Shown here: positions 14,278 to 21,695 of the stretch, one piece after another
Numbering within the stretch: position 1 is the stretch's first letter
How the letters are laid out: each line of letters starts with the position of its first letter
Assembly: GCA_046052125.1 (NCBI GenBank)
Contig: JBJOMY010000001.1
Location: forward strand, 384,001-448,000
Length of the DNA: 64,000 nucleotides
DNA from: Cyanobacteriota bacterium
GTDB lineage: Bacteria > Cyanobacteriota > Cyanobacteriia > PCC-6307 > Cyanobiaceae
Reading direction: 5' to 3'
The notes under the pieces: generated by a model
What the model was told of the DNA's origin: nothing
Seen by the model: the letters and a program-made list of their open reading frames with translations, nothing else
Database searches by the model: none
Program-made: the position numbers and the translations under genes

Positions 14278-17121
14278 TCAGGGAGCAGGCGCTGTCGGGT
14301 CTGGCACGGTGAGGGCCTTAACCGGCTGAACGCTGGTGAGCCGAGCCAGTGCATCCTGCAGGTTGCGCTCCATCACGAAGCGGGTGCCGTCGGTGACCAC
14401 CACGCGCACCAGGGTGGGCAGATCGGTGTTCTTGCTCTGCAGATAGATCGGCTCCACATAGAGCAGACCCTTGCCCACCGGCAGCACCAGCAGGTTGCCG
14501 TGGATCAACCTCGAGCCCTCGCGGTTCCACAGGCCGAACTGATAGCTGATGGCCGGGTCCTGCTCGATCAGGGCCGACACCTGTTGGGGGCCCAGCAGCA
14601 AGCGCTGCTGGGGGAAGCGCACCAAGCGCAGCTCGCCGTAGTGGGGAGGGTCGTTGCGCGCCGCCAGCCAACCCACCATGTTGGGCCGCTTCAGAGGCGA
14701 GAACGGCAGCAGCAGCACAAACTCGGGCTTTGTTTCTCCAGGCAGCTGAACCGTCACGTGATACGGCCGAACAGGGGTGTTGGCGCTGCCATAGATCTCT
14801 AGCGGCACCGACCACACGTCATCACCGTTGTAGAAGGTGCGCACGTCGGTGACGTGGTAGCGAAGCAGCCGCTCCGCCTGGATCTGGAACTGGCTCTTGG
14901 GCACCTGAATGTGCGCCAGCAGCGGTTTGGGCATATCCGACAGCGGGCGGAACAGCTCAGGGAAGGCGCGTTTCCAGGTGCGCAGCACTGGATCGCTCGG
15001 GTCGCTCACGTAGAACCACACCCGCCCGTGATAGGCGTCCACCACCGCCTTCACCGGGTTGCGGAAGTAGCGCAAGCCCGCAGGATTGGCGTCGGAATAG
15101 GGGTAGCTGCGGCTCTCGGTGAAGCCATCGAGCATCCAGTACTGATGCTGATTGGGGTCATAGCCCTTGCCGCCGCTCACCTGAGCGGTGACCAGATAAG
15201 GCTGACTTTCAAAGCGCAGGAAGGGGGTCAAGGCGGCAAGACGCTGTTGCACCTGCCTGCGCAGCAGGAGGCGTGAGTCCGGGGTCAACGAACCGGTGAA
15301 CAGCAATCGTGGCTCCGGCAGATAGAGCGCTGCCATCAGGCGGTCAAACGCCCCATGGATGGGCACACCACCAGCGCCGTCGTAGTGGGAATAAACGTTG
15401 AGATCGCCCTCGGGAAAATCGAACTCGCGCACCTGAGAGGGCGCGATCACGTAATGGGATGGGGCGGAGGCGAAATACAGGCGTGGCCGACCCACTGGCA
15501 GGGCCCGCTGCACGTCTTCAGCGTTCAGGCCCAGCTGTTCGATGCCCTGCACCTTGCCGCTGCGGCCCAGGTCCTTCACGAAATACAGGGGTAGACCATC
15601 GGGTCCGAAGGCGTTCACCGTGGAAACGGTGAAGCCGTAGCCGTGGGTGAACACGAGGTGGCGGTTCAGCCAGGTGCGTGAATCACTGGGAAGTGCAGCG
15701 GTATCAAGCTCACGGGCTGCGATCAGCACCTGCTGGGAACCCTGCCGGGCTGAATGACCACTCAGGGGATAACGATCCACCGCCGCTGAGGGGAAGCGGT
15801 AGTAGAGCCGCAGCTGCTGCAGCTGACGGTTGGCTTCCAGCAGCGGCTTGCTGTCCCAGAGGCGGATATTGGCCAAGGTGCCAGGCGCTGCGGCGAGATC
15901 AGCGGCCGTGAGTCGTTGGCGGGGCTCCAGGGCCGTTTGTTTCACCGCCTCCAGGCCAAAGGCCCGGCGGGTGGCATCAATCGAGCGGCGCAGATAGGGC
16001 GTTTCCAGCGCCAGCTCCCGCGGCTGCACCCAGATGCGCTGCACCAGCGGCGCCACAATCCACTCCACAAGCGGCAGCGCAAGCGCCGTCACCGCCAAGG
16101 GGATGAGCGCGCCGCGGCGCAGCCAGTTGCGCGGCAGGGGCACAAGCAAGCCAAGGCCGGCGAGCAACAGCAGCACAGCCAGCAACAAGCGCAGCGGCAG
16201 CCGCACGTGCAGATCCACAAAACCCGCGCCAGCAGCCACGCCGCTACCGCTCACCATCAGATCGAAGGGAGCCAGGGCATTGCTGAGGGAGGCCATCAGC
16301 GCCAGCACCGCCACCTGCGGCTGAAGCACCCGCTGCTGCTCGCGGCTAAGCCCGGGAAAACGGAGATCGCTGAGGCTGCTGCCCTCGCTAAAGGTGAGCC
16401 AAAGACACCCCGCCAACCCCACGATCGCCTGAGCGAGCACAACGCTCACCAGTAGATGAAGCGCTGGCAACCGCAACACCGTGAAGCTGAGATCGAAACC
16501 CGTCAGCGGATCAGCCTCGTTGAAGGGCACCGCCAGCAAGGCCGGCAACCAGAGGCTCCAGCCGCGGGCCACCGCCGTGGCCGAGCCCGCCAGGGCGGCG
16601 GCCAGGGTGATGCGCAGAGTGGTGAAGGGCCAGAGCAGCAGCAGAGGAAGCAGTGCGGCCGCCAGACCGATAAACACAAAGGGCGGCAGGTCCGCCAGCA
16701 CAGGAATACCCGTAATCACCTTGCCGCTGAACGGTGCGGCGATCAGGTCACGGGCCTGCACCATCAGATAGGTGAAGCCACCGGCGAGCAGCAGCAGCAG
16801 CGCCCCGAGCACCACCACTAACCAGCGCGAGCCGAGAGCAATCAGCGGGGCAGCGGGAAGGATTTTCCGAGCAGCCTCCTGGCGCAGGCGCCAGCAACGC
16901 TTGAGCTGCTGAAGCTGCAGGGGGACCCCCAGGCCCAGCACCACCCCAAAACCAAGCAACTGCAGCAACCAGCGCCGCAGGATCACAGGGGCGCTAGCAA
17001 ATTCCGCAAACCACTGCCCCTCCACCAGCAAGCGGGGCAATAGCACCAGGGCCCCCAGGCCAAGAGCCGTGAGCCCCAGCCAGCGCAGGGGCCGGGTGAG
17101 GCGATCAGCGGGTGCCTGCAA
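14278..17121 (-). CDS. UPF0182 family membrane protein
   Basis: Multi-TM N-terminus, NIRLWD, DRYP, ARELD, HLVFTHGYG, YFRNPVKAVVDAY, GNLLVLP, LYVEPIY. Confidence 0.93.
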   Translation of the reverse strand: MQAPADRLTRPLRWLGLTALGLGALVLLPRLLVEGQWFAEFASAPVILRRWLLQLLGFGVVLGLGVPLQLQQLKRCWRLRQEAARKILPAAPLIALGSRWLVVVLGALLLLLAGGFTYLMVQARDLIAAPFSGKVITGIPVLADLPPFVFIGLAAALLPLLLLWPFTTLRITLAAALAGSATAVARGWSLWLPALLAVPFNEADPLTGFDLSFTVLRLPALHLLVSVVLAQAIVGLAGCLWLTFSEGSSLSDLRFPGLSREQQRVLQPQVAVLALMASLSNALAPFDLMVSGSGVAAGAGFVDLHVRLPLRLLLAVLLLLAGLGLLVPLPRNWLRRGALIPLAVTALALPLVEWIVAPLVQRIWVQPRELALETPYLRRSIDATRRAFGLEAVKQTALEPRQRLTAADLAAAPGTLANIRLWDSKPLLEANRQLQQLRLYYRFPSAAVDRYPLSGHSARQGSQQVLIAARELDTAALPSDSRTWLNRHLVFTHGYGFTVSTVNAFGPDGLPLYFVKDLGRSGKVQGIEQLGLNAEDVQRALPVGRPRLYFASAPSHYVIAPSQVREFDFPEGDLNVYSHYDGAGGVPIHGAFDRLMAALYLPEPRLLFTGSLTPDSRLLLRRQVQQRLAALTPFLRFESQPYLVTAQVSGGKGYDPNQHQYWMLDGFTESRSYPYSDANPAGLRYFRNPVKAVVDAYHGRVWFYVSDPSDPVLRTWKRAFPELFRPLSDMPKPLLAHIQVPKSQFQIQAERLLRYHVTDVRTFYNGDDVWSVPLEIYGSANTPVRPYHVTVQLPGETKPEFVLLLPFSPLKRPNMVGWLAARNDPPHYGELRLVRFPQQRLLLGPQQVSALIEQDPAISYQFGLWNREGSRLIHGNLLVLPVGKGLLYVEPIYLQSKNTDLPTLVRVVVTDGTRFVMERNLQDALARLTSVQPVKALTVPDPTAPAP

Positions 17122-17200
17122 GGGATGTCCGACGATGTCAGGAGGCTAGACAGCAGGGGAGGTAGGTCAAGCCCCAACAGGGCTACCGCAACAGCCTCTG

Positions 17201-17227
17201 AATACCCGACCTCTTGGATCGGGTATT
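17201..17227. promoter_or_regulatory. Palindromic operator resembling an IscR/Rrf2-family site
   Basis: AATACCCGA-N9-TCGGGTATT perfect inverted repeat in the divergent intergenic region; arms fit the IscR type-1 consensus ATASYYGAC...GTCRRSTAT at the same 25-bp length. Confidence 0.6.
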
Positions 17228-17282
17228 AATTGGAAGTCAGTGCGGCGTTGCTAAGTTCCACACACCTGATCCAGGTGTGATC

Positions 17283-18554
17283 GTGACGGCGACCCTTTCC
17301 CTCTCCACTGCTGGCCCCACCTTCACGGGCCTGAAGTGCAAGGAATGCGGCCAGCCCTACGAGGCCGGCGCCCGTCACGTCTGCGAAGACGTGTGCTTCG
17401 GCCCCCTGGAAGTGGTCTACGACTACGAGGCGATCAAGAGCCGCGTCAGCCGCGCCACGATCGAAGCCGGCCCCGCCTCGATCTGGCGCTACCGCGAATT
17501 CCTGCCGATCGCCGGCGATCCGATTGATGTGGGCACAGGCTTCACCCCGTTGCTTAAGGCCAACAACCTGGCCAAGCGTCTGGGCCTGAAGAGCCTCTAC
17601 ATCAAAAACGACGGCGTGAACATGCCGACGCTCTCCTTCAAGGACCGCGTGGTGAGCGTGGCTCTCACCCGCGCCCGCGAGCTGGGTTTCAAGACGGTGA
17701 GCTGCGCCTCCACCGGCAACCTGGCCAACTCCACAGCCGCGATCGCCGCCCACGCCGGCCTGGATTGTTGTGTGTTCATCCCCAGCGATCTGGAGCTGGG
17801 CAAGGTGCTCGGCACCCTCATCTACAACCCCACCCTGATGGCGGTGAAGGGCAACTACGACCAGGTGAACCGCCTGTGCTCGGAGGTGGCCAACACCTAC
17901 GGCTGGGGCTTCGTGAACATCAACCTGCGCCCCTACTACTCCGAAGGCTCCAAGACCCTCGGCTACGAGGTGATCGAACAACTGGGCTGGGAACTGCCCG
18001 ACCACATCGTGGCGCCCCTGGCCTCCGGCTCCCTATTCACCAAGATCCGCAAGGGCTTTGATGAATTCATCAAGTGTGGCCTGGTGGACGAGAAGGCCGT
18101 GCGCTTCAGCGGCGCCCAAGCCGAAGGCTGCAATCCCATCGCCACCGCCTTTCGTGAGGGCCGTGACTTCATCACCCCGGTGAAGCCCAACACCATTGCC
18201 AAGTCGATCGCCATCGGTAACCCCGCTGACGGCCCCTACGCCATTGACATCGCCAATCGCACCGGCGGCAGCATCGCTGATGTAACCGATGCCGAAATCA
18301 TCGACGGCATCAAACTCCTGGCTGAAACCGAGGGCGTGTTCACCGAAACCGCCGGTGGCACCACCATTGCGGTGCTTAAAAAGCTGGTGGAGCAGGGAAA
18401 GATCAACCCTGAGGAGCGCACCGTGGCCTACATCACAGGCAACGGCCTCAAGACCACCGAAGCCGTGGTCGATCACATCGGCAAGCCCTACACGATCGAA
18501 GCGCAGCTCGACAGTTTCAACGCGGCCTGGCAGCAAGCTCAGGCTGGCCACTGA
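17283..18554 (+). CDS. thrC: Threonine synthase-family PLP enzyme with N-terminal zinc ribbon (possibly sulfur-carrier dependent)
   Basis: CKECG...CEDVCFGP, PTLSFKDR (PLP lysine), CASTGN, NLRPYYSEGSKT, TGNGLK. Start at GTG 17283 or 17277 is more likely than the track's TTG 17214. Confidence 0.85.
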   Translation: MTATLSLSTAGPTFTGLKCKECGQPYEAGARHVCEDVCFGPLEVVYDYEAIKSRVSRATIEAGPASIWRYREFLPIAGDPIDVGTGFTPLLKANNLAKRLGLKSLYIKNDGVNMPTLSFKDRVVSVALTRARELGFKTVSCASTGNLANSTAAIAAHAGLDCCVFIPSDLELGKVLGTLIYNPTLMAVKGNYDQVNRLCSEVANTYGWGFVNINLRPYYSEGSKTLGYEVIEQLGWELPDHIVAPLASGSLFTKIRKGFDEFIKCGLVDEKAVRFSGAQAEGCNPIATAFREGRDFITPVKPNTIAKSIAIGNPADGPYAIDIANRTGGSIADVTDAEIIDGIKLLAETEGVFTETAGGTTIAVLKKLVEQGKINPEERTVAYITGNGLKTTEAVVDHIGKPYTIEAQLDSFNAAWQQAQAGH

Positions 18555-18608
18555 GCACCGGCTCTCCGGCACCCTTTTTCCCAACCGTCGCTCAACCCAT
18601 CACGATCC

Positions 18609-18884
18609 ATGCCCGTTCAGGTTCTGATCCCCACCCCCCTGCAGAAGTTCACCAACGATGAGGCCAGCGTTGAGCTGGATGCCAGCAGCGTGGATGCCCT
18701 GATCGATGCCCTGGATGGTCGCTATCCGGGTCTGAAGGGTCGTCTGTGTGATGAGGCCGGCAAGCTGCGTCGCTTCCTCAACGTGTACGTGAACAGCGAG
18801 GACATCCGCTTCCTCGAGAACCAGGCCACCGCCCTCAAGGATGGCGATGAGGTGAGCATTGTTCCCGCCGTTGCAGGCGGCTGA
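18609..18884 (+). CDS. MoaD/ThiS/CysO-family ubiquitin-like sulfur carrier
   Basis: 91 aa, V-x-[18 protein letters not shown], ends IVPAVAGG. Confidence 0.93.
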
Positions 18885-18936
18885 ATTCATAGGCTGAACT
18901 GACCGCCCCGATCCGCCTGCCGGCAGGAGTGGCTCG

Positions 18937-19884
18937 ATGACTCAAACCCCAGAGCGCCGTCGCAACGCCGAACCAGCGTGTGCCAAGGCGCTGTTGTTCG
19001 ACTACCGCCAAGCGGCTAACCCGGTGCGAGCCGGGCTCACCGAGCCAATCCCTTACCGCGCCTGGGGACCTGAGCTGCACAGCCAGGGCCCCAGCGGAAT
19101 CATTCCCCTTGATCTCAGCGTTGAGCTTGGGGTGGCTGGCCCAGCCACCAGCCCCGCGCTGGCGGCCCATTTCATCCGGATTGCTGCCGGAGAGGGTGTG
19201 CGTGCGGCCGCAACGGCCACTAGCTCTTTGTTCTTTGTGCTCTCCGGTGCAGGCAGCTGCCGCTACCGGGATCACGCCGACGACACCACGATCACCTGGC
19301 AGGAAGGGGATCTGTTCGTGCTGCCTGCCGGCGGCACCCCACTGCTCGAGGCGGAGTCCACCAGCGTTCTGTACTGGGTGCACGATGCCCCGCTGCTCAA
19401 CTATCTAGGCGTGACCCCCTCGGGCCCGCGCTTCGAGCCGACCCACTACAGCGCCAACTGGCTGCGCAGCGAACTGCAAACCCTGGCCGACCAACCCGGC
19501 AGCGAAGCCAGCAACCGCATCAGCCTGCTCCTGGCGAACCGGGATCTGCCCAGCACCCGCACCGTGACCCACGTGCTCTGGGCGATGTACGGCATTGTTC
19601 CGCCCGGCAGCACCCAGGCTCCCCACCGGCATCAATCGGTGGCACTCGACCTGATCATCGACTGCAAGCCCAGGGTCTACACCTTGGTGGGGACAGAGCT
19701 CGATGACGCGGGATTGATTCGCAACCCGAAACGGATCGACTGGCAGTCCGGTGGTGCCTTCATCACCCCCCCCGGCCACTGGCACTCCCATGTGAATGAG
19801 AGCGGGGAACCGGCCTGGCTACTCCCGATTCAGGATGCCGGCCTGCAGACCTACCTCCGCAGCCTCGACATCCGCTTCGCCTGA
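18937..19884 (+). CDS. Bicupin protein, gentisate 1,2-dioxygenase-like
   Basis: Two cupin repeats (WQEGDLFVLP; FITPPGHWHSHVN); PHRH...WH metal ligands only in the second; AGGAG RBS. Confidence 0.8.
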   Translation: MTQTPERRRNAEPACAKALLFDYRQAANPVRAGLTEPIPYRAWGPELHSQGPSGIIPLDLSVELGVAGPATSPALAAHFIRIAAGEGVRAAATATSSLFFVLSGAGSCRYRDHADDTTITWQEGDLFVLPAGGTPLLEAESTSVLYWVHDAPLLNYLGVTPSGPRFEPTHYSANWLRSELQTLADQPGSEASNRISLLLANRDLPSTRTVTHVLWAMYGIVPPGSTQAPHRHQSVALDLIIDCKPRVYTLVGTELDDAGLIRNPKRIDWQSGGAFITPPGHWHSHVNESGEPAWLLPIQDAGLQTYLRSLDIRFA

Positions 19885-19889
19885 GAGGC

Positions 19890-21695
19890 TCAGAGCGCCG
19901 CTGCCACGGCTGGCTGACGCTCTTCATGGGCCTCCACCAGCGCTGCAAACTCCGGGCCCTCGATCGTTTCACGCTGGATCAGCAACTCCACGAGCTGATC
20001 CATCAGGGCGCGGCGTGGTTGCAACAAGGCCACCGCTTCATCGAGTGAGCGGCGGGCCAGCTGCTGCACCTGGGCATCGATTCGATTGCCGGTCTCCTGG
20101 GAATAGTGAGGCTCCGAACGCAGCCAGTCGCGACCGAGAAACACCTCATGCCCCTCTCCCTCCAGTGAAACCGGGCCGAGGGATGAGAATCCGTAGCGGG
20201 TCACCATCTCGCGGCCGATCCGACTCACCATTTCCAGATCACCGGAAGCGCCCTGGGTGATCTCGCTGGGACCGAACACCACCAGCTCAGCAGCCCGACC
20301 GCCCATGGCGACCACCAGGCGTGCCTGCAGGTAGGCCTTGCTGATCAGGCCGGAGTCGAGCACATCTTCATCGGGCATGGTCCGCGCAAAGCCACCCACG
20401 CCACCAGCGCGCGGGAGCAGCGTCACCTTGTCGAGGCGATCGGCTGCGGGCAAAAGGGTGGTGATCAGGGCATGGCCGATCTCGTGATACGCGATCAGAC
20501 GTTTTTTGGCGCTGTCTTGCAGGGGGGCGGCCGTGAGGCCCATGGTGATGCGCTCAAGGGCATCACCGATGGCGGCATCGTCGATGCAGTCACGCTCCCG
20601 CCGGGCCGTGAGGATTGCCGCCTCGTTAAGGAGGTTGGAAAGGTCTGCGCCGGAGAAGCCCGGGGTGCGGCTGGCCCAGTCGGCCAGGGACACCTCTGGA
20701 TCGAGGGGGCGGCTGCGGGCGTGAACCGCCAGGATCGCTTCGCGGCCGCGGCGATCCGGCAGGTCGACGTGGATGCGACGGTCAAAACGACCGGGGCGCA
20801 TCAGGGCAGCGTCGAGCACATCAGGGCGGTTGGTGGCCGCCAGCAGGATCACGCCGGAGTTATCGGCAAAACCATCCATCTCCGTGAGCAGCTGGTTGAG
20901 GGTCTGCTCCCGTTCGTCGTTGCCACCGCCGATGCCAGCTCCCCGCTGGCGACCCACCGCGTCGATCTCATCAATGAACACGATGCAAGGAGCCTTCTCC
21001 TTGGCCTGGCGGAACAGATCGCGCACGCGGCTCGCGCCCACGCCCACAAACAGTTCGACAAATTCCGAGGCGGCCATCGAGAAAAACGGCACCCCGGCCT
21101 CTCCGGCAATCGCCTTGGCCAGCAGCGTTTTGCCCGTGCCAGGCGGACCCACCAGCAGGACGCCTTTGGGAATCTTGGCTCCCACGGCGGTGAAACGCTC
21201 CGGCTCCTTGAGAAAGGCCACCACTTCCTGGAGCTCTTCCTTGGCCTCCTGGATGCCGGCCACATCTTCAAAGCGCACCGGCACAGCGGCCTCCGCTTGC
21301 ACCATCCGAGCCTTGCTGCGGCCAAAGCCCATGGCGCGATTCGCCACCTGCGCGGAGCGGCGCAGCAACAGCGCCAAGCCTCCGAACAGCAGCAACAGCA
21401 GCAGTCCGTTGGAGACCAGGCTGGCGGTGGCCTGATCCTGGCGCTCATCGCGAACGGTGAGGGGAATGCGCGCTTGTTGGGCCGTGCGCAACAACACCTG
21501 GTCGTTGCTGAACACCGGAACGGTCACTTGCTTGCCGTCGGTGTAGGTGACCTTCACCTGACGTTGGCCAGGAGAGAGCAACAACTCCTTCACCGTGCCG
21601 CCGCGCATCTGTTGCAGCAGCTGGCTATAGCTGGGTTGAGGTGCGCGGGCCAGGCCGAGAACCACTGGCAGATCAGAAGATTTGCTGCTGCTCAC
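19890..21695 (-). CDS. ftsH: ATP-dependent zinc metalloprotease FtsH
   Basis: [43 protein letters not shown]. Confidence 0.97.

What the first reader, a model, noticed from the sequence alone, without database searches (positions are those of the whole stretch)
17283..18884. ThrC-like PLP enzyme paired with a ubiquitin-like sulfur carrier: candidate carrier-dependent homocysteine/cysteine synthase
Seen: a zinc-ribbon threonine-synthase-family gene (PTLSFKDR) followed 54 bp later by a 91-aa beta-grasp protein ending AVAGG, with no molybdopterin or thiamine genes nearby. Established: a true threonine synthase needs no sulfur carrier, whereas mycobacterial CysM uses thiocarboxylated CysO on O-phosphoserine. 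From memory, a ThrC-homologue/carrier pair (MetM/MetO) making homocysteine from O-phosphohomoserine has been reported in Streptomyces. The homoserine-to-homocysteine step is poorly resolved in many cyanobacteria. Inference: this pair is a misannotated sulfur-insertion module rather than the housekeeping thrC.
Basis: partly seen in the sequence, partly recalled or inferred. Interest (0 to 1): 0.8.

Follow-up and report, generated by a model that had tools for sequence, protein, structure and literature searches.

The report
Cyanobacterial MetM/MetO-type homocysteine synthase pair
A gene labelled "threonine synthase" and the small sulfur-carrier gene behind it most likely make homocysteine, the precursor of methionine, by a route described in Streptomyces in 2024, so this is a mislabelled member of a known system rather than a new one.

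Summary
Window 17283-18554 (+) encodes a 423-aa zinc-ribbon ThrC-family PLP enzyme. After a 54-nt spacer, 18609-18884 (+) encodes a 91-aa ThiS/MoaD-fold protein ending AVAGG.

- The genome has a second, canonical thrC, plus ilvA, thrB and metH.
- It has one MoeZ/MoeB-type E1 with a rhodanese domain, placed next to a JAMM protease.
- No MoaE, MetX, MetA or Cys/Met-PLP enzyme was found.
- The pair sits in a well-supported carrier-linked clade, separate from canonical ThrC.
- In other phyla this clade carries SAM-I riboswitches (12 of 26 loci scanned) and neighbouring E1/JAMM genes.
- In a sample of 251 genomes, all 95 oxygenic cyanobacteria outside the window's own family carry both genes. In 94 of the 98 genomes with both, the carrier lies directly downstream.

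This matches the MetM/MetO route of Streptomyces albulus (Hasebe 2024, known to me only through citing papers). This scan has reached the same verdict on other DNA.

One caveat is new here. The genome also has a DUF39 (HcyBio) gene and a NIL/ferredoxin gene with the same distribution, so the pair is not the only candidate route to homocysteine.

A complex prediction never ran. No biochemical test in cyanobacteria has used the loaded carrier.

The parts
17283..18554 (+). metM-like gene: a ThrC-family PLP enzyme, 423 aa from GTG 17283. The start is uncertain (in-frame GTG 17277, TTG 17214).
   Evidence: PF00291 242 bits, TIGR00260 332 bits. Orthologues in cyanobacteria are 73-100% identical. It belongs to a carrier-linked clade with 100% SH-aLRT support. 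It holds all clade-signature residues: L147, E171, N196, R216, Y219, K254, K307, G358-G359, T391.
17337..17396 (+). N-terminal zinc-ribbon motif C19-x2-C22-x11-C34-x3-C38
   Evidence: Visible in the translation. C34 is invariant and C19, C22 and C38 are at least 90% conserved in 69 clade members. The motif is absent from the 17 canonical cyanobacterial ThrC sequences. It is also present in Zn-ribbon ThrC-like proteins without a carrier, so it does not identify the clade on its own.
17640..17642 (+). Codon of Lys120 in SFKDR, the predicted PLP Schiff-base lysine
   Evidence: Invariant in all 126 aligned ThrC-family sequences. It aligns with the SFKDR lysine of the solved threonine synthases 2zsj, 6cgq and 1uim.
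18555..18608 (+). 54-nt spacer between the two genes
   Evidence: No terminator-like site was found in 16900-20000. One contig from an RNA library (X3 record 17, 18473-18642, no differences) bridges it. This is a weak hint only: a contig across two genes does not prove a single transcript, and DNA can be present in RNA libraries.
18609..18884 (+). metO-like gene: 91-aa ThiS/MoaD beta-grasp sulfur carrier ending Gly90-Gly91 then a stop
   Evidence: The closest solved relatives are 3dwg chain C (named '9.5 kDa culture filtrate antigen cfp10A'; from recall this is M. tuberculosis CysO in complex with CysM), E 2e-20, and 4n6e chain B, E 7e-20. Orthologues in cyanobacteria are 58-100% identical. 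45 of 46 cyanobacterial-type carriers end GG-stop. The only similarity to the genome's ThiS is in the last 16 residues.

Best explanation
The two genes are the cyanobacterial form of the MetM/MetO system, a homocysteine synthase that depends on a protein thiocarboxylate.

Proposed course (steps 1-5 are inferred from homology; none was shown here):
1. Homoserine kinase (ThrB, contig C3) makes O-phospho-L-homoserine.
2. The single E1 of the genome (ThiF domain plus rhodanese domain, contig C6) adenylates Gly91 of the carrier and converts it to a thiocarboxylate.
3. The ThrC-like enzyme binds O-phosphohomoserine on PLP (Lys120) and eliminates phosphate, as threonine synthase does. Instead of adding water at C-beta, it lets the carrier's C-terminal thiocarboxylate attack C-gamma.
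4. The acyl-homocysteine product is released from the carrier. This may happen directly, or after an S-to-N shift by the JAMM hydrolase encoded next to the E1.
5. MetH methylates homocysteine to methionine.

Threonine itself is made by the separate canonical ThrC. The pair contributes to methionine synthesis, but I cannot say it is the only route, because a DUF39 gene and a NIL/ferredoxin gene are also present.
For: Anatomy:
- PLP fold with the catalytic lysine, next to a GG-ended carrier whose nearest solved relative is 3dwg chain C.

Genome inventory (completeness 99.96%):
- Second canonical thrC, 330 bits and 36% identical.
- IlvA, 824 bits.
- ThrB, 252 bits, above its cut-off.
- MetH, 1426 bits.
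- One ThiF-family E1 of 390 aa with a rhodanese CKLGGR loop (PRK07411 696 bits). It lies 28 nt after a Prok-JAB protein whose HSHPx7SxxD motif is intact.
- No MoaE, no MetX, no MetA. The best PF01053 hit scores only 27.8 bits.
- Three CysK-type enzymes; none passes the CysM cut-offs.

Distribution in a phylum sample of 251 genomes:
- 98 have both genes, and in 94 of those 98 the carrier is directly downstream on the same strand (gap 49-536 nt).
- All 95 same-class genomes outside the window's family have both.
- All 103 same-class genomes also keep a canonical ThrC.
- 66 of the 98 pair-holders have no PF01053 enzyme at E<=1e-40.
- The 5 family members without the pair each have two PF01053 genes, one of them adjacent to a MetA-family gene.

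Other phyla (30 loci, 59-66% identical):
- Carrier downstream in 28 of 30, E1 in the same locus in 15 of 30, JAMM in 7 of 30.
- A SAM-I riboswitch directly upstream on the same strand in 12 of the 26 loci scanned. This ties the clade to methionine/SAM rather than threonine.

Tree (91 rows):
- Canonical ThrC and the Zn-ribbon group are separated with 100% SH-aLRT support.
- The carrier-linked clade has 100% support. The cyanobacterial proteins form one group inside it (100%), next to actinobacterial members.

Signature residues:
- The clade differs from both canonical and other Zn-ribbon ThrC at conserved positions. For example, the Arg of the ThrC 'NPYR' motif is moved to 'LRPYY' (R216, Y219).

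Literature:
- The Microcystis orthologue is reported to be 51.6% identical to S. albulus MetM and its neighbour 47.25% identical to MetO. Both are induced by threonine (10.5-fold and 6.8-fold), and thrC induction is reversed by methionine (PMC12172450; passages).
- P0001 is 78% identical to a Microcystis locus (L062).
Against: - The enzyme passes the curated threonine synthase model TIGR00260, and every source names it threonine synthase.
- The purified Microcystis orthologue turned over O-phosphohomoserine in vitro. The authors read this as threonine synthase plus threonine deaminase activity and saw no clear homocysteine with Na2S. Vmax was only 0.0176 umol/mg/min, and carrier thiocarboxylate was not tested (PMC12172450 section 7 and discussion passages).
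- I could not compare P0001 with S. albulus MetM directly. The paper is not held, and no Streptomyces sequence was reached.
- No SAM riboswitch or other Rfam element lies upstream in the window or in the 8 cyanobacterial loci scanned.
- With a single-protein query, the JAMM gene is still found in 4 of the 5 family members that lack the pair, so it is not dedicated to the pair.
- The single E1 must also serve ThiS.
- The gap argument is not exclusive. The genome has a DUF39/HcyBio protein (166 bits, full length) and a NIL plus two-[4Fe-4S] ferredoxin protein. These have the same distribution as the pair.
- The co-loss in the window's family may be a single evolutionary event.
Confidence: 0.72

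Rival explanations
1. It is a genuine threonine synthase paralogue, possibly moonlighting as a threonine deaminase as proposed for Microcystis, and the carrier next to it has an unrelated role.
For: TIGR00260 scores 332 bits, above the 167.1 cut-off. The catalytic lysine and many ThrC residues are shared. In vitro, the Microcystis orthologue consumed O-phosphohomoserine and formed keto acid from threonine (PMC12172450 abstract and section 7).
Against: A canonical ThrC is present here and in all 103 same-class genomes sampled, and IlvA is present here, so neither activity is needed. The carrier is adjacent in 94 of 98 cyanobacterial genomes and 28 of 30 loci of other phyla. SAM riboswitches, not threonine-related control, stand upstream in 12 of 26 loci of other phyla. 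Clade-specific changes affect conserved ThrC positions.
Confidence: 0.07
2. The pair is a carrier-dependent sulfur-insertion module, but its product is not homocysteine. It could make cysteine from O-phosphoserine as CysM/CysO does, or another thiol amino acid or cofactor precursor. In that case homocysteine in this organism would come from the DUF39 plus NIL/ferredoxin system.
For: The carrier's nearest solved relative is 3dwg chain C, which from recall is M. tuberculosis CysO, the carrier for cysteine synthesis. DUF39 (166 bits) and NIL/ferredoxin are present. They are found in 94 of 95 and 95 of 95 same-class genomes outside the family. In Desulfovibrio and methanogens such proteins make homocysteine without homoserine (PMC5764234 passages).
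Against: The partner enzyme belongs to the ThrC family, not the CysK/CysM family, and three CysK-type enzymes are already present. SAM riboswitches in other phyla point to methionine. 27 of the 30 genomes of other phyla that carry the pair show no DUF39, so the pair works without it there (these are MAGs of unknown completeness). Expression in Microcystis responds to methionine. The function of the cyanobacterial DUF39 is untested, and two searches found no paper on it.
Confidence: 0.12
3. The adjacency has no functional meaning: a MoaD or ThiS gene simply happens to lie beside a thrC paralogue.
For: The carrier also matches moaD_arch (51 bits) and SAMP1 (56 bits).
Against: MoaE was not found, and the genome's ThiS lies elsewhere beside a TMP-synthase gene. 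The order and strand of the two genes are kept in 94 of 98 cyanobacterial genomes and 28 of 30 loci of other phyla. The two genes are also absent together in the 5 family members that lack either.
Confidence: 0.02

Closest known systems
MetM/MetO (with Mec and MoeZ) of Streptomyces albulus, which makes homocysteine from O-phospho-L-homoserine and MetO thiocarboxylate. Source: Hasebe et al. 2024, Appl Environ Microbiol 90:e01247-24. The paper is not held; I know it only from passages in PMC12172450 and PMC13759103 / bioRxiv 10.1101/2024.10.14.618325.
   Same: A ThrC-homologous PLP enzyme is followed by a GG-type ThiS/MoaD carrier. A MoeZ-type E1 with rhodanese and a JAMM hydrolase are in the genome, and ThrB supplies the substrate. 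The enzyme is annotated 'threonine synthase' everywhere. Actinobacterial members group with the cyanobacterial clade.
   Different: There is no SAM riboswitch upstream. The carrier ends exactly at GG, so it needs no C-terminal maturation (45 of 46 cyanobacterial-type carriers do). E1 and JAMM lie on another contig, and the JAMM gene is not strictly co-distributed with the pair. A DUF39 gene and a NIL/ferredoxin gene coexist with the pair. Activity is untested, and identity to S. albulus MetM is known only indirectly (51.6% for Microcystis, per PMC12172450).
CysM/CysO/Mec/MoeZ of Mycobacterium tuberculosis, which makes cysteine from O-phosphoserine and CysO thiocarboxylate. The mechanism is recalled; the structure is 3dwg.
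   Same: The carrier is the closest solved relative (E 2e-20). The logic is the same: an E1 plus rhodanese loads the carrier, a PLP enzyme uses a phosphorylated hydroxy-amino acid, and a JAMM hydrolase is present.
   Different: The PLP enzyme here is of the ThrC family, not the CysK/CysM family. The expected chemistry is gamma-replacement on a four-carbon substrate rather than beta-replacement.
Canonical threonine synthase (ThrC; TIGR00260; solved structures 2zsj, 6cgq, 1uim, 2d1f)
   Same: The fold, the PLP lysine, many active-site residues and the probable substrate O-phosphohomoserine are shared.
   Different: It is only 36% identical to the genome's own ThrC. It has an extra zinc ribbon, forms a separate clade and has clade-specific substitutions at conserved ThrC positions. 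It is always paired with a carrier.
DUF39 (HcyBio, COG1900) + NIL/ferredoxin route to homocysteine from aspartate semialdehyde, known in methanogens and Desulfovibrio (PMC5764234 passages)
   Same: It has the same end product, and in the cyanobacterial sample it has the same distribution as the pair.
   Different: The proteins and chemistry are unrelated, and it has no carrier and no PLP enzyme. It is encoded elsewhere in the genome (contigs C5 and C2). Its role in cyanobacteria is untested.

Membership tests
MetM/MetO thiocarboxylate-dependent homocysteine synthase system | ThrC-homologous PLP enzyme with the catalytic lysine | tested here: met
   PF00291 242 bits, TIGR00260 332 bits, and K120 invariant in SFKDR.
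MetM/MetO thiocarboxylate-dependent homocysteine synthase system | Orthology with the characterised S. albulus MetM (same clade) | tested here: inconclusive
   The S. albulus sequence could not be obtained. Indirect evidence: the protein lies in the carrier-linked clade (100% SH-aLRT) together with actinobacterial proteins (P0127, 52% identical). The Microcystis orthologue is reported to be 51.6% identical to MetM (PMC12172450).
MetM/MetO thiocarboxylate-dependent homocysteine synthase system | Adjacent ThiS/MoaD-fold carrier with a C-terminal Gly-Gly | tested here: met
   A 91-aa protein ending AVAGG lies 54 nt downstream. The arrangement is conserved in 94 of 98 genomes and 28 of 30 loci of other phyla.
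MetM/MetO thiocarboxylate-dependent homocysteine synthase system | MoeZ-type E1 (adenylyltransferase + rhodanese) available to load the carrier | tested here: met
   One ThiF-family gene of 390 aa with a C-terminal rhodanese loop. PRK07411 scores 696 bits (cut-off 633); the MoeZ model scores 502 bits (below its 647 cut-off).
MetM/MetO thiocarboxylate-dependent homocysteine synthase system | JAMM (Mec) hydrolase | tested here: met
   Prok-JAB at 63 bits with the HxHx7SxxD motif, 28 nt upstream of the E1. Caveat: it is also found in 4 of the 5 relatives without the pair.
MetM/MetO thiocarboxylate-dependent homocysteine synthase system | Supply of O-phosphohomoserine and a consumer of homocysteine | tested here: met
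   ThrB at 252 bits (cut-off 168) and MetH at 1426 bits.
MetM/MetO thiocarboxylate-dependent homocysteine synthase system | SAM riboswitch upstream (reported for S. albulus metM) | tested here: not met
   None was found in the window at the gathering score or at E<=10 in 16950-17400, and none in the 8 cyanobacterial loci scanned. It is present in 12 of 26 loci of other phyla. This is a regulatory feature, not a catalytic one.
MetM/MetO thiocarboxylate-dependent homocysteine synthase system | Homocysteine formation from O-phosphohomoserine and carrier thiocarboxylate | not testable with these tools
   This needs biochemistry. The only cyanobacterial assay in the held library used Na2S, not a loaded carrier (PMC12172450).
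Threonine synthase (housekeeping ThrC) | Scores above the curated equivalog cut-off | tested here: met
   TIGR00260 scores 332 bits against a cut-off of 167.1. PRK08197 scores 279 bits, below its cut-off of 303.
Threonine synthase (housekeeping ThrC) | Groups with canonical ThrC and keeps its clade-conserved residues | tested here: not met
   It falls in a separate clade with 100% SH-aLRT support. About 29 positions outside the N-terminal ribbon that are conserved in both groups differ between them.
Threonine synthase (housekeeping ThrC) | Needed as the genome's route to threonine | tested here: not met
   A canonical ThrC is present in this genome and in all 103 same-class genomes sampled.
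CysM/CysO cysteine synthase system | Carrier-using enzyme of the CysK/CysM family | tested here: not met
   The neighbouring enzyme is of the ThrC family. The three CysK-type genes elsewhere pass the cysK or cysteine synthase A cut-offs but not the cysM cut-offs, and none is next to a carrier.

The most novel reading that the evidence does not exclude
In oxygenic cyanobacteria the MetM/MetO pair and the DUF39 plus NIL/ferredoxin proteins may not be two redundant routes. They may be one co-inherited four-gene system, with two possible forms. In one, DUF39/NIL-ferredoxin delivers reduced sulfur to the carrier or to the PLP enzyme. In the other, the two routes are switched by oxygen, light or sulfide. 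All four genes are near-universal in the class and are missing together in the picocyanobacterial relatives that use metY-metA instead.
Probability: 0.15. Interest if true: 0.65.

Novelty: new member of a known kind. Interest (0 to 1): 0.33.

Why it matters
Methionine synthesis before MetH was described as undetermined in the model cyanobacterium Synechocystis as late as 2020 (PMC7133116 section 5.5). If the reading is right, nearly all oxygenic cyanobacteria make homocysteine from O-phosphohomoserine with a protein thiocarboxylate. That would mean thousands of database entries named "threonine synthase" and "MoaD family protein" are mislabelled, and metabolic models of cyanobacteria should be corrected.

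The reading also offers a simpler account of the one experimental paper on the cyanobacterial enzyme, which called it a moonlighting threonine synthase/deaminase. It is not a discovery of a new kind of system: the pathway was published in 2024, its authors already noted cyanobacterial homologues, and this scan has reached the same verdict before. The open point worth an experiment is which of the two co-distributed candidate routes (MetM/MetO or DUF39 + NIL/ferredoxin) carries the flux.

Tried and rejected
It never ran, so there is no result either way.
2. Hasebe et al. 2024 could not be read by PMC id or DOI.
3. No Streptomyces MetM sequence was obtained. The genome-contig scan kept only the 80 closest loci, at 59% identity or more. 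A search from the Micromonosporaceae relative listed only closer kin.
4. Rfam found nothing in the window at gathering scores. At E<=10 around the 5' region it gave only chance-level hits.
5. The promoter/terminator scan of 16900-20000 found no sites.
6. A 7-bp inverted repeat upstream is conserved in 8 picocyanobacterial loci. I tested it as a possible methionine-regulon operator. The genome has 15 exact core matches, and none lies upstream of metH, thrB, DUF39, NIL/ferredoxin or the JAMM-E1 genes. The most similar match lies inside a phycobiliprotein gene. The regulon idea is rejected.
7. JAMM as a marker of the pathway fails. A single-protein search found it in only 49 of 251 genomes, including 4 of the 5 relatives without the pair. 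The query is poorly conserved, so absences mean little.
8. Depth of RNA-library contigs cannot rank genes, and parts without cover prove nothing.
9. The search of earlier findings by place returned nothing for this genome.
10. MetX in the window's family gave only one weak hit, 81 bits in G110.
Full report
**Observation.** The + strand carries an ORF ending at 18554, with in-frame starts at TTG 17214, GTG 17277 and GTG 17283.
- From 17283 the protein (P0001, 423 aa) has a C-x2-C-x11-C-x3-C motif at residues 19-38 and the motif PTLSFKDR with Lys120.
- It matches PF00291 (242 bits) and the curated threonine synthase model TIGR00260 (332 bits, cut-off 167.1). It scores 279 bits against PRK08197, below that model's cut-off of 303.
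- After a 54-nt spacer, 18609-18884 encodes a 91-aa protein (P0002) ending AVAGG-stop. It matches PF02597 ThiS (68 bits), moaD_arch (51 bits) and SAMP1 (56 bits).
- The neighbours scanned are not molybdopterin or thiamine genes. They are a divergent UPF0182 gene, a bicupin 52 nt downstream, FtsH, a GFO/IDH/MocA oxidoreductase, class II aldolase, a P-loop protein and a HAD hydrolase.

**Whose genome.** Source names on the closest proteins (84-98% identical) are Cyanobium, Synechococcus and "Prochlorococcaceae", and all call the protein threonine synthase. The genome held for the window has 2.64 Mb in 10 contigs and is 99.96% complete.

**Inventory of the genome.**
- There are two proteins above the thrC cut-off: the one in the window, and a ribbon-less one on contig C2 (330 bits; 36% identical to P0001).
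- IlvA is present (824 bits). Three CysK-type enzymes are present, and none passes the CysM cut-offs.
- ThrB (252 bits) and MetH (1426 bits) are present.
- MetX, MetA and MoaE gave no match. The best Cys_Met_Meta_PP match scores 27.8 bits, which fits an unrelated aminotransferase-type fold.
- The genome has only two ThiS-family genes: the one in the window, and a 75-aa ThiS overlapping the end of a ThiD2/TMP-synthase gene on contig C4. The two carriers are alike only in their last 16 residues.
- There is one ThiF-family E1 of 390 aa with a C-terminal rhodanese loop CKLGGR. PRK07411 "MoeB" scores 696 bits; the MoeZ model scores 502 bits, below its cut-off.
- The E1 starts 28 nt after a 165-aa Prok-JAB protein with an intact HSHPx7SxxD motif.
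- So every component listed for the Streptomyces pathway has a counterpart here, and threonine and 2-oxobutyrate synthesis are covered by other genes.

**What is known.**
Passages in GapMind 2026 (bioRxiv 10.1101/2024.10.14.618325 and PMC13759103) describe MetO, Mec, MoeZ and MetM of Streptomyces albulus after Hasebe et al. 2024. [quoted passage not shown]
- The Hasebe paper itself is not held.
- Kim et al. 2025 (PMC12172450: abstract, sections 7 and 9, and passages) studied the Microcystis orthologue.
  - They report 51.6% identity to MetM and 47.25% identity of the neighbouring gene to MetO. They note that Hasebe et al. found homologues "distributed among cyanobacteria".
  - They nevertheless interpret the enzyme as a moonlighting threonine synthase/deaminase.
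  - Their organism also has a canonical ThrC2 and IlvA. Their Vmax on O-phosphohomoserine is 0.0176 umol/mg/min, and they offered Na2S rather than a loaded carrier.
  - Both genes were induced by threonine, and methionine reversed thrC induction. I read that as a methionine-starvation response.
- Mills et al. 2020 (PMC7133116 section 5.5) state that Synechocystis lacks MetA, MetB and MetC, and that the steps before MetH are undetermined.
- Four searches found no paper in the held library showing the pathway experimentally in a cyanobacterium.

**Conservation.** In an even sample of 251 genomes of the phylum:
- 98 have both a strong orthologue of the enzyme (73-100% identity) and of the carrier (58-100%).
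- In 94 of those 98 the carrier lies directly downstream on the same strand (gap 49-536 nt, median about 144). In the other 4 the genes are 18 kb or more apart or on different contigs.
- All 95 same-class genomes outside the window's family have both. In the window's family 3 of 8 do (G000, G110, G142).
- The non-photosynthetic lineages lack the pair. The 8 "enzyme only" and 4 "carrier only" rows there are weak matches of 34-43% identity.
- A canonical ThrC orthologue (67-81% identity) is present in all 103 same-class genomes, so the window's enzyme is never the only ThrC.
- A Cys_Met_Meta_PP enzyme (E<=1e-40) is present in only 31 of the 95, and in G142 but not G000 or G110. Hence 66 of the 98 pair-holders have none.
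- The 5 family members without the pair each have two such genes. One of them is adjacent to a MetA-family acyltransferase gene (200-209 bits, below the equivalog cut-off).
- The family therefore shows three states: pair only, both, and metY-metA only.

**Other phyla.** A scan of species-representative genomes returned 80 loci.
- 50 are cyanobacterial-type (75-94% identical). Two of those records bear non-cyanobacterial MAG titles, which is probably a binning error.
- 30 come from other groups at 59-66% identity: Nitrospirota, Planctomycetia, Chloroflexota, Actinomycetota, Aquificaceae, Elusimicrobia, Nitrospinota, Omnitrophota and others.
- The carrier is directly downstream in 46 of the 50. 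Two loci are cut at the gene end, and two Pseudanabaena loci have none within the flank.
- The carrier is directly downstream in 28 of the 30. One locus is cut, and one Aquificaceae locus has none.
- An E1 lies in the same locus in 15 of the 30 and a JAMM in 7 of the 30 (one of these is weak). Neither was found in any of the 50 cyanobacterial-type loci.
- Rfam finds a SAM-I riboswitch immediately upstream on the same strand in 12 of the 26 non-cyanobacterial loci scanned, and in none of the 8 cyanobacterial loci scanned. This is independent evidence that the clade serves methionine/SAM metabolism.
- 45 of 46 cyanobacterial-type carriers end exactly at GG. In other phyla 16 of 27 have residues after GG, some apparently fused to the next gene. 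The cyanobacterial carrier therefore needs no C-terminal processing.

**Phylogeny and residues.** The tree has 91 rows (IQ-TREE quick search, LG+G4, SH-aLRT support only). For speed I used every third cyanobacterial and every second other-phylum MetM-like row.
- The 17 canonical cyanobacterial ThrC sequences separate from all Zn-ribbon proteins with 100% support.
- A 49-row clade (100%) holds every carrier-linked protein.
- The cyanobacterial ones form one group (100%) nested among carrier-linked bacterial ones. They lie close to Actinomycetota loci that have both a riboswitch and a carrier, and to a Micromonosporaceae protein (52% identical to P0001).
- Zn-ribbon ThrC-like proteins from non-photosynthetic cyanobacterial lineages, which lack a carrier, fall outside this clade. 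The ribbon alone therefore does not define it.
- Two rows (L114, L116) had very long branches, probably from imperfect frames, and should be ignored.
- The PLP lysine is shared. The carrier-linked group differs from canonical ThrC at about 29 positions outside the N-terminal ribbon that are conserved within each group, and at many of these it also differs from the other Zn-ribbon group. Examples are L147 (against T or A), R216/Y219 (against N/R; the Arg of 'NPYR' is shifted to 'LRPYY'), K254, K307, G358-G359 and T391 (against D).
- From memory, the ThrC Arg in that motif binds the substrate or product phosphate that steers water to C-beta. Its relocation would fit a changed fate of the intermediate. 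This is inference.

**Mechanism.** The steps in Best explanation follow from homology with the S. albulus system and with CysM/CysO/Mec/MoeZ of M. tuberculosis. The carrier's nearest solved relative is 3dwg chain C (E 2e-20). None of the steps was shown here.

**A caveat found on the way.** I had assumed the pair was the only candidate for homocysteine synthesis. It is not.
- The genome encodes a full-length DUF39/HcyBio protein (PF01837, 166 bits; contig C5) and a 138-aa protein with a NIL domain and two [4Fe-4S] motifs (contig C2).
- These are the components that make homocysteine from aspartate semialdehyde in Desulfovibrio and methanogens (PMC5764234 passages).
- In the same 251 genomes they follow the same pattern as the pair.
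  - DUF39 is in 94 of 95 same-class genomes outside the family, and NIL/ferredoxin is in 95 of 95.
  - Within the family, both are present only in G000, G110 and G142.
  - Both are also present in three genomes of another lineage that lacks the pair.
- Outside cyanobacteria, only 3 of the 30 genomes carrying the pair show DUF39 (MAGs of unknown completeness), so the pair does not need it in general.
- The co-loss within the window's family may be a single event, so the coupling is suggestive, not demonstrated.
- Two searches found no paper on DUF39 in cyanobacteria.

**Other small points.**
- Contigs from RNA libraries with few or no differences cover both genes. One bridges the 54-nt spacer (X3, 18473-18642), and two bridge the carrier-cupin junction. 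This is compatible with co-transcription but does not prove it.
- The JAMM gene is not dedicated to the pair.
- No promoter-like or terminator-like site and no Rfam element were found near the genes.

**Verdict.** It is a member of a system published in 2024, whose presence in cyanobacteria was already noted by its discoverers. Earlier follow-ups of this scan on other DNA reached the same reading (for example e1-3132595). I rate it a new member of a known kind, of moderate interest. The unresolved and more interesting question is how the MetM/MetO pair and the equally widespread DUF39 + NIL/ferredoxin genes share the task of making homocysteine in cyanobacteria.

Noticed in passing
Own genome outside the window: G000:C5:43893-44906 (L118 1426-2568) and G000:C2:512710-513123 (L119 1495-1911): A DUF39/HcyBio protein (PF01837, 166 bits) and a NIL + two-[4Fe-4S] ferredoxin protein, the components of the methanogen/Desulfovibrio homocysteine route. 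In 251 genomes of the phylum they have the same presence/absence pattern as the metM/metO-like pair: 94 of 95 and 95 of 95 same-class genomes outside the family, and within the family only G000, G110 and G142. DUF39 scores 470-515 bits in most cyanobacteria but only 166-191 bits in the window's family.
   Followed up: partly
window 17203-17225: A perfect 7-bp inverted repeat, TACCCGA-N9-TCGGGTA, about 60 nt upstream of the GTG start and overlapping the TTG at 17214. Its core is conserved in 8 picocyanobacterial loci. It could be an operator or an RNA hairpin. No similar site was found upstream of other methionine genes.
   Followed up: partly
window 18937-19884 (+): A 315-aa bicupin (Cupin_2, with weak matches to gentisate and 5-aminosalicylate dioxygenase models) starts 52 nt after the carrier. 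It is conserved in that position only in 6 close Cyanobium-type loci. RNA-library contigs bridge the junction. Its function is unknown, and so is any link to the pair.
   Followed up: partly
Own genome G000:C6:79946-81226 (L010 1435-3132): The only E1 of the genome passes NCBI's 'molybdopterin-synthase adenylyltransferase MoeB' model (PRK07411), although MoaE was not found. That name is probably wrong here. The E1 should serve ThiS and the MetO-like carrier. It is preceded by a JAMM gene.
   Followed up: partly
G174:C1:1469351-1470931, G131:C1:1499646-1501274, G192:C27:18454-20071 (handles): In three genomes of one genus (g39) the JAMM homologue lies about 150 nt downstream of the canonical thrC, not of the metM-like gene. 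Two of these matches contain an in-frame TGA.
   Followed up: no
Loci L067-L097: In other phyla 16 of 27 carriers continue beyond the Gly-Gly. Some continue with long tails that look like the start of the next (E1) gene, which suggests carrier-E1 fusions or a need for JAMM maturation.
   Followed up: no
L061 and L064: Two records titled as Chitinophaga pinensis and Acetobacteraceae MAGs carry metM-like genes 90% and 80% identical to the window's. L061 also shares the Cyanobium-type neighbours. These are probably cyanobacterial contigs binned into the wrong genome.
   Followed up: no
window 14278-17121 (-): A 947-aa UPF0182 membrane protein is transcribed divergently from the metM-like gene. 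This arrangement is kept in the 7 closest loci.
   Followed up: no
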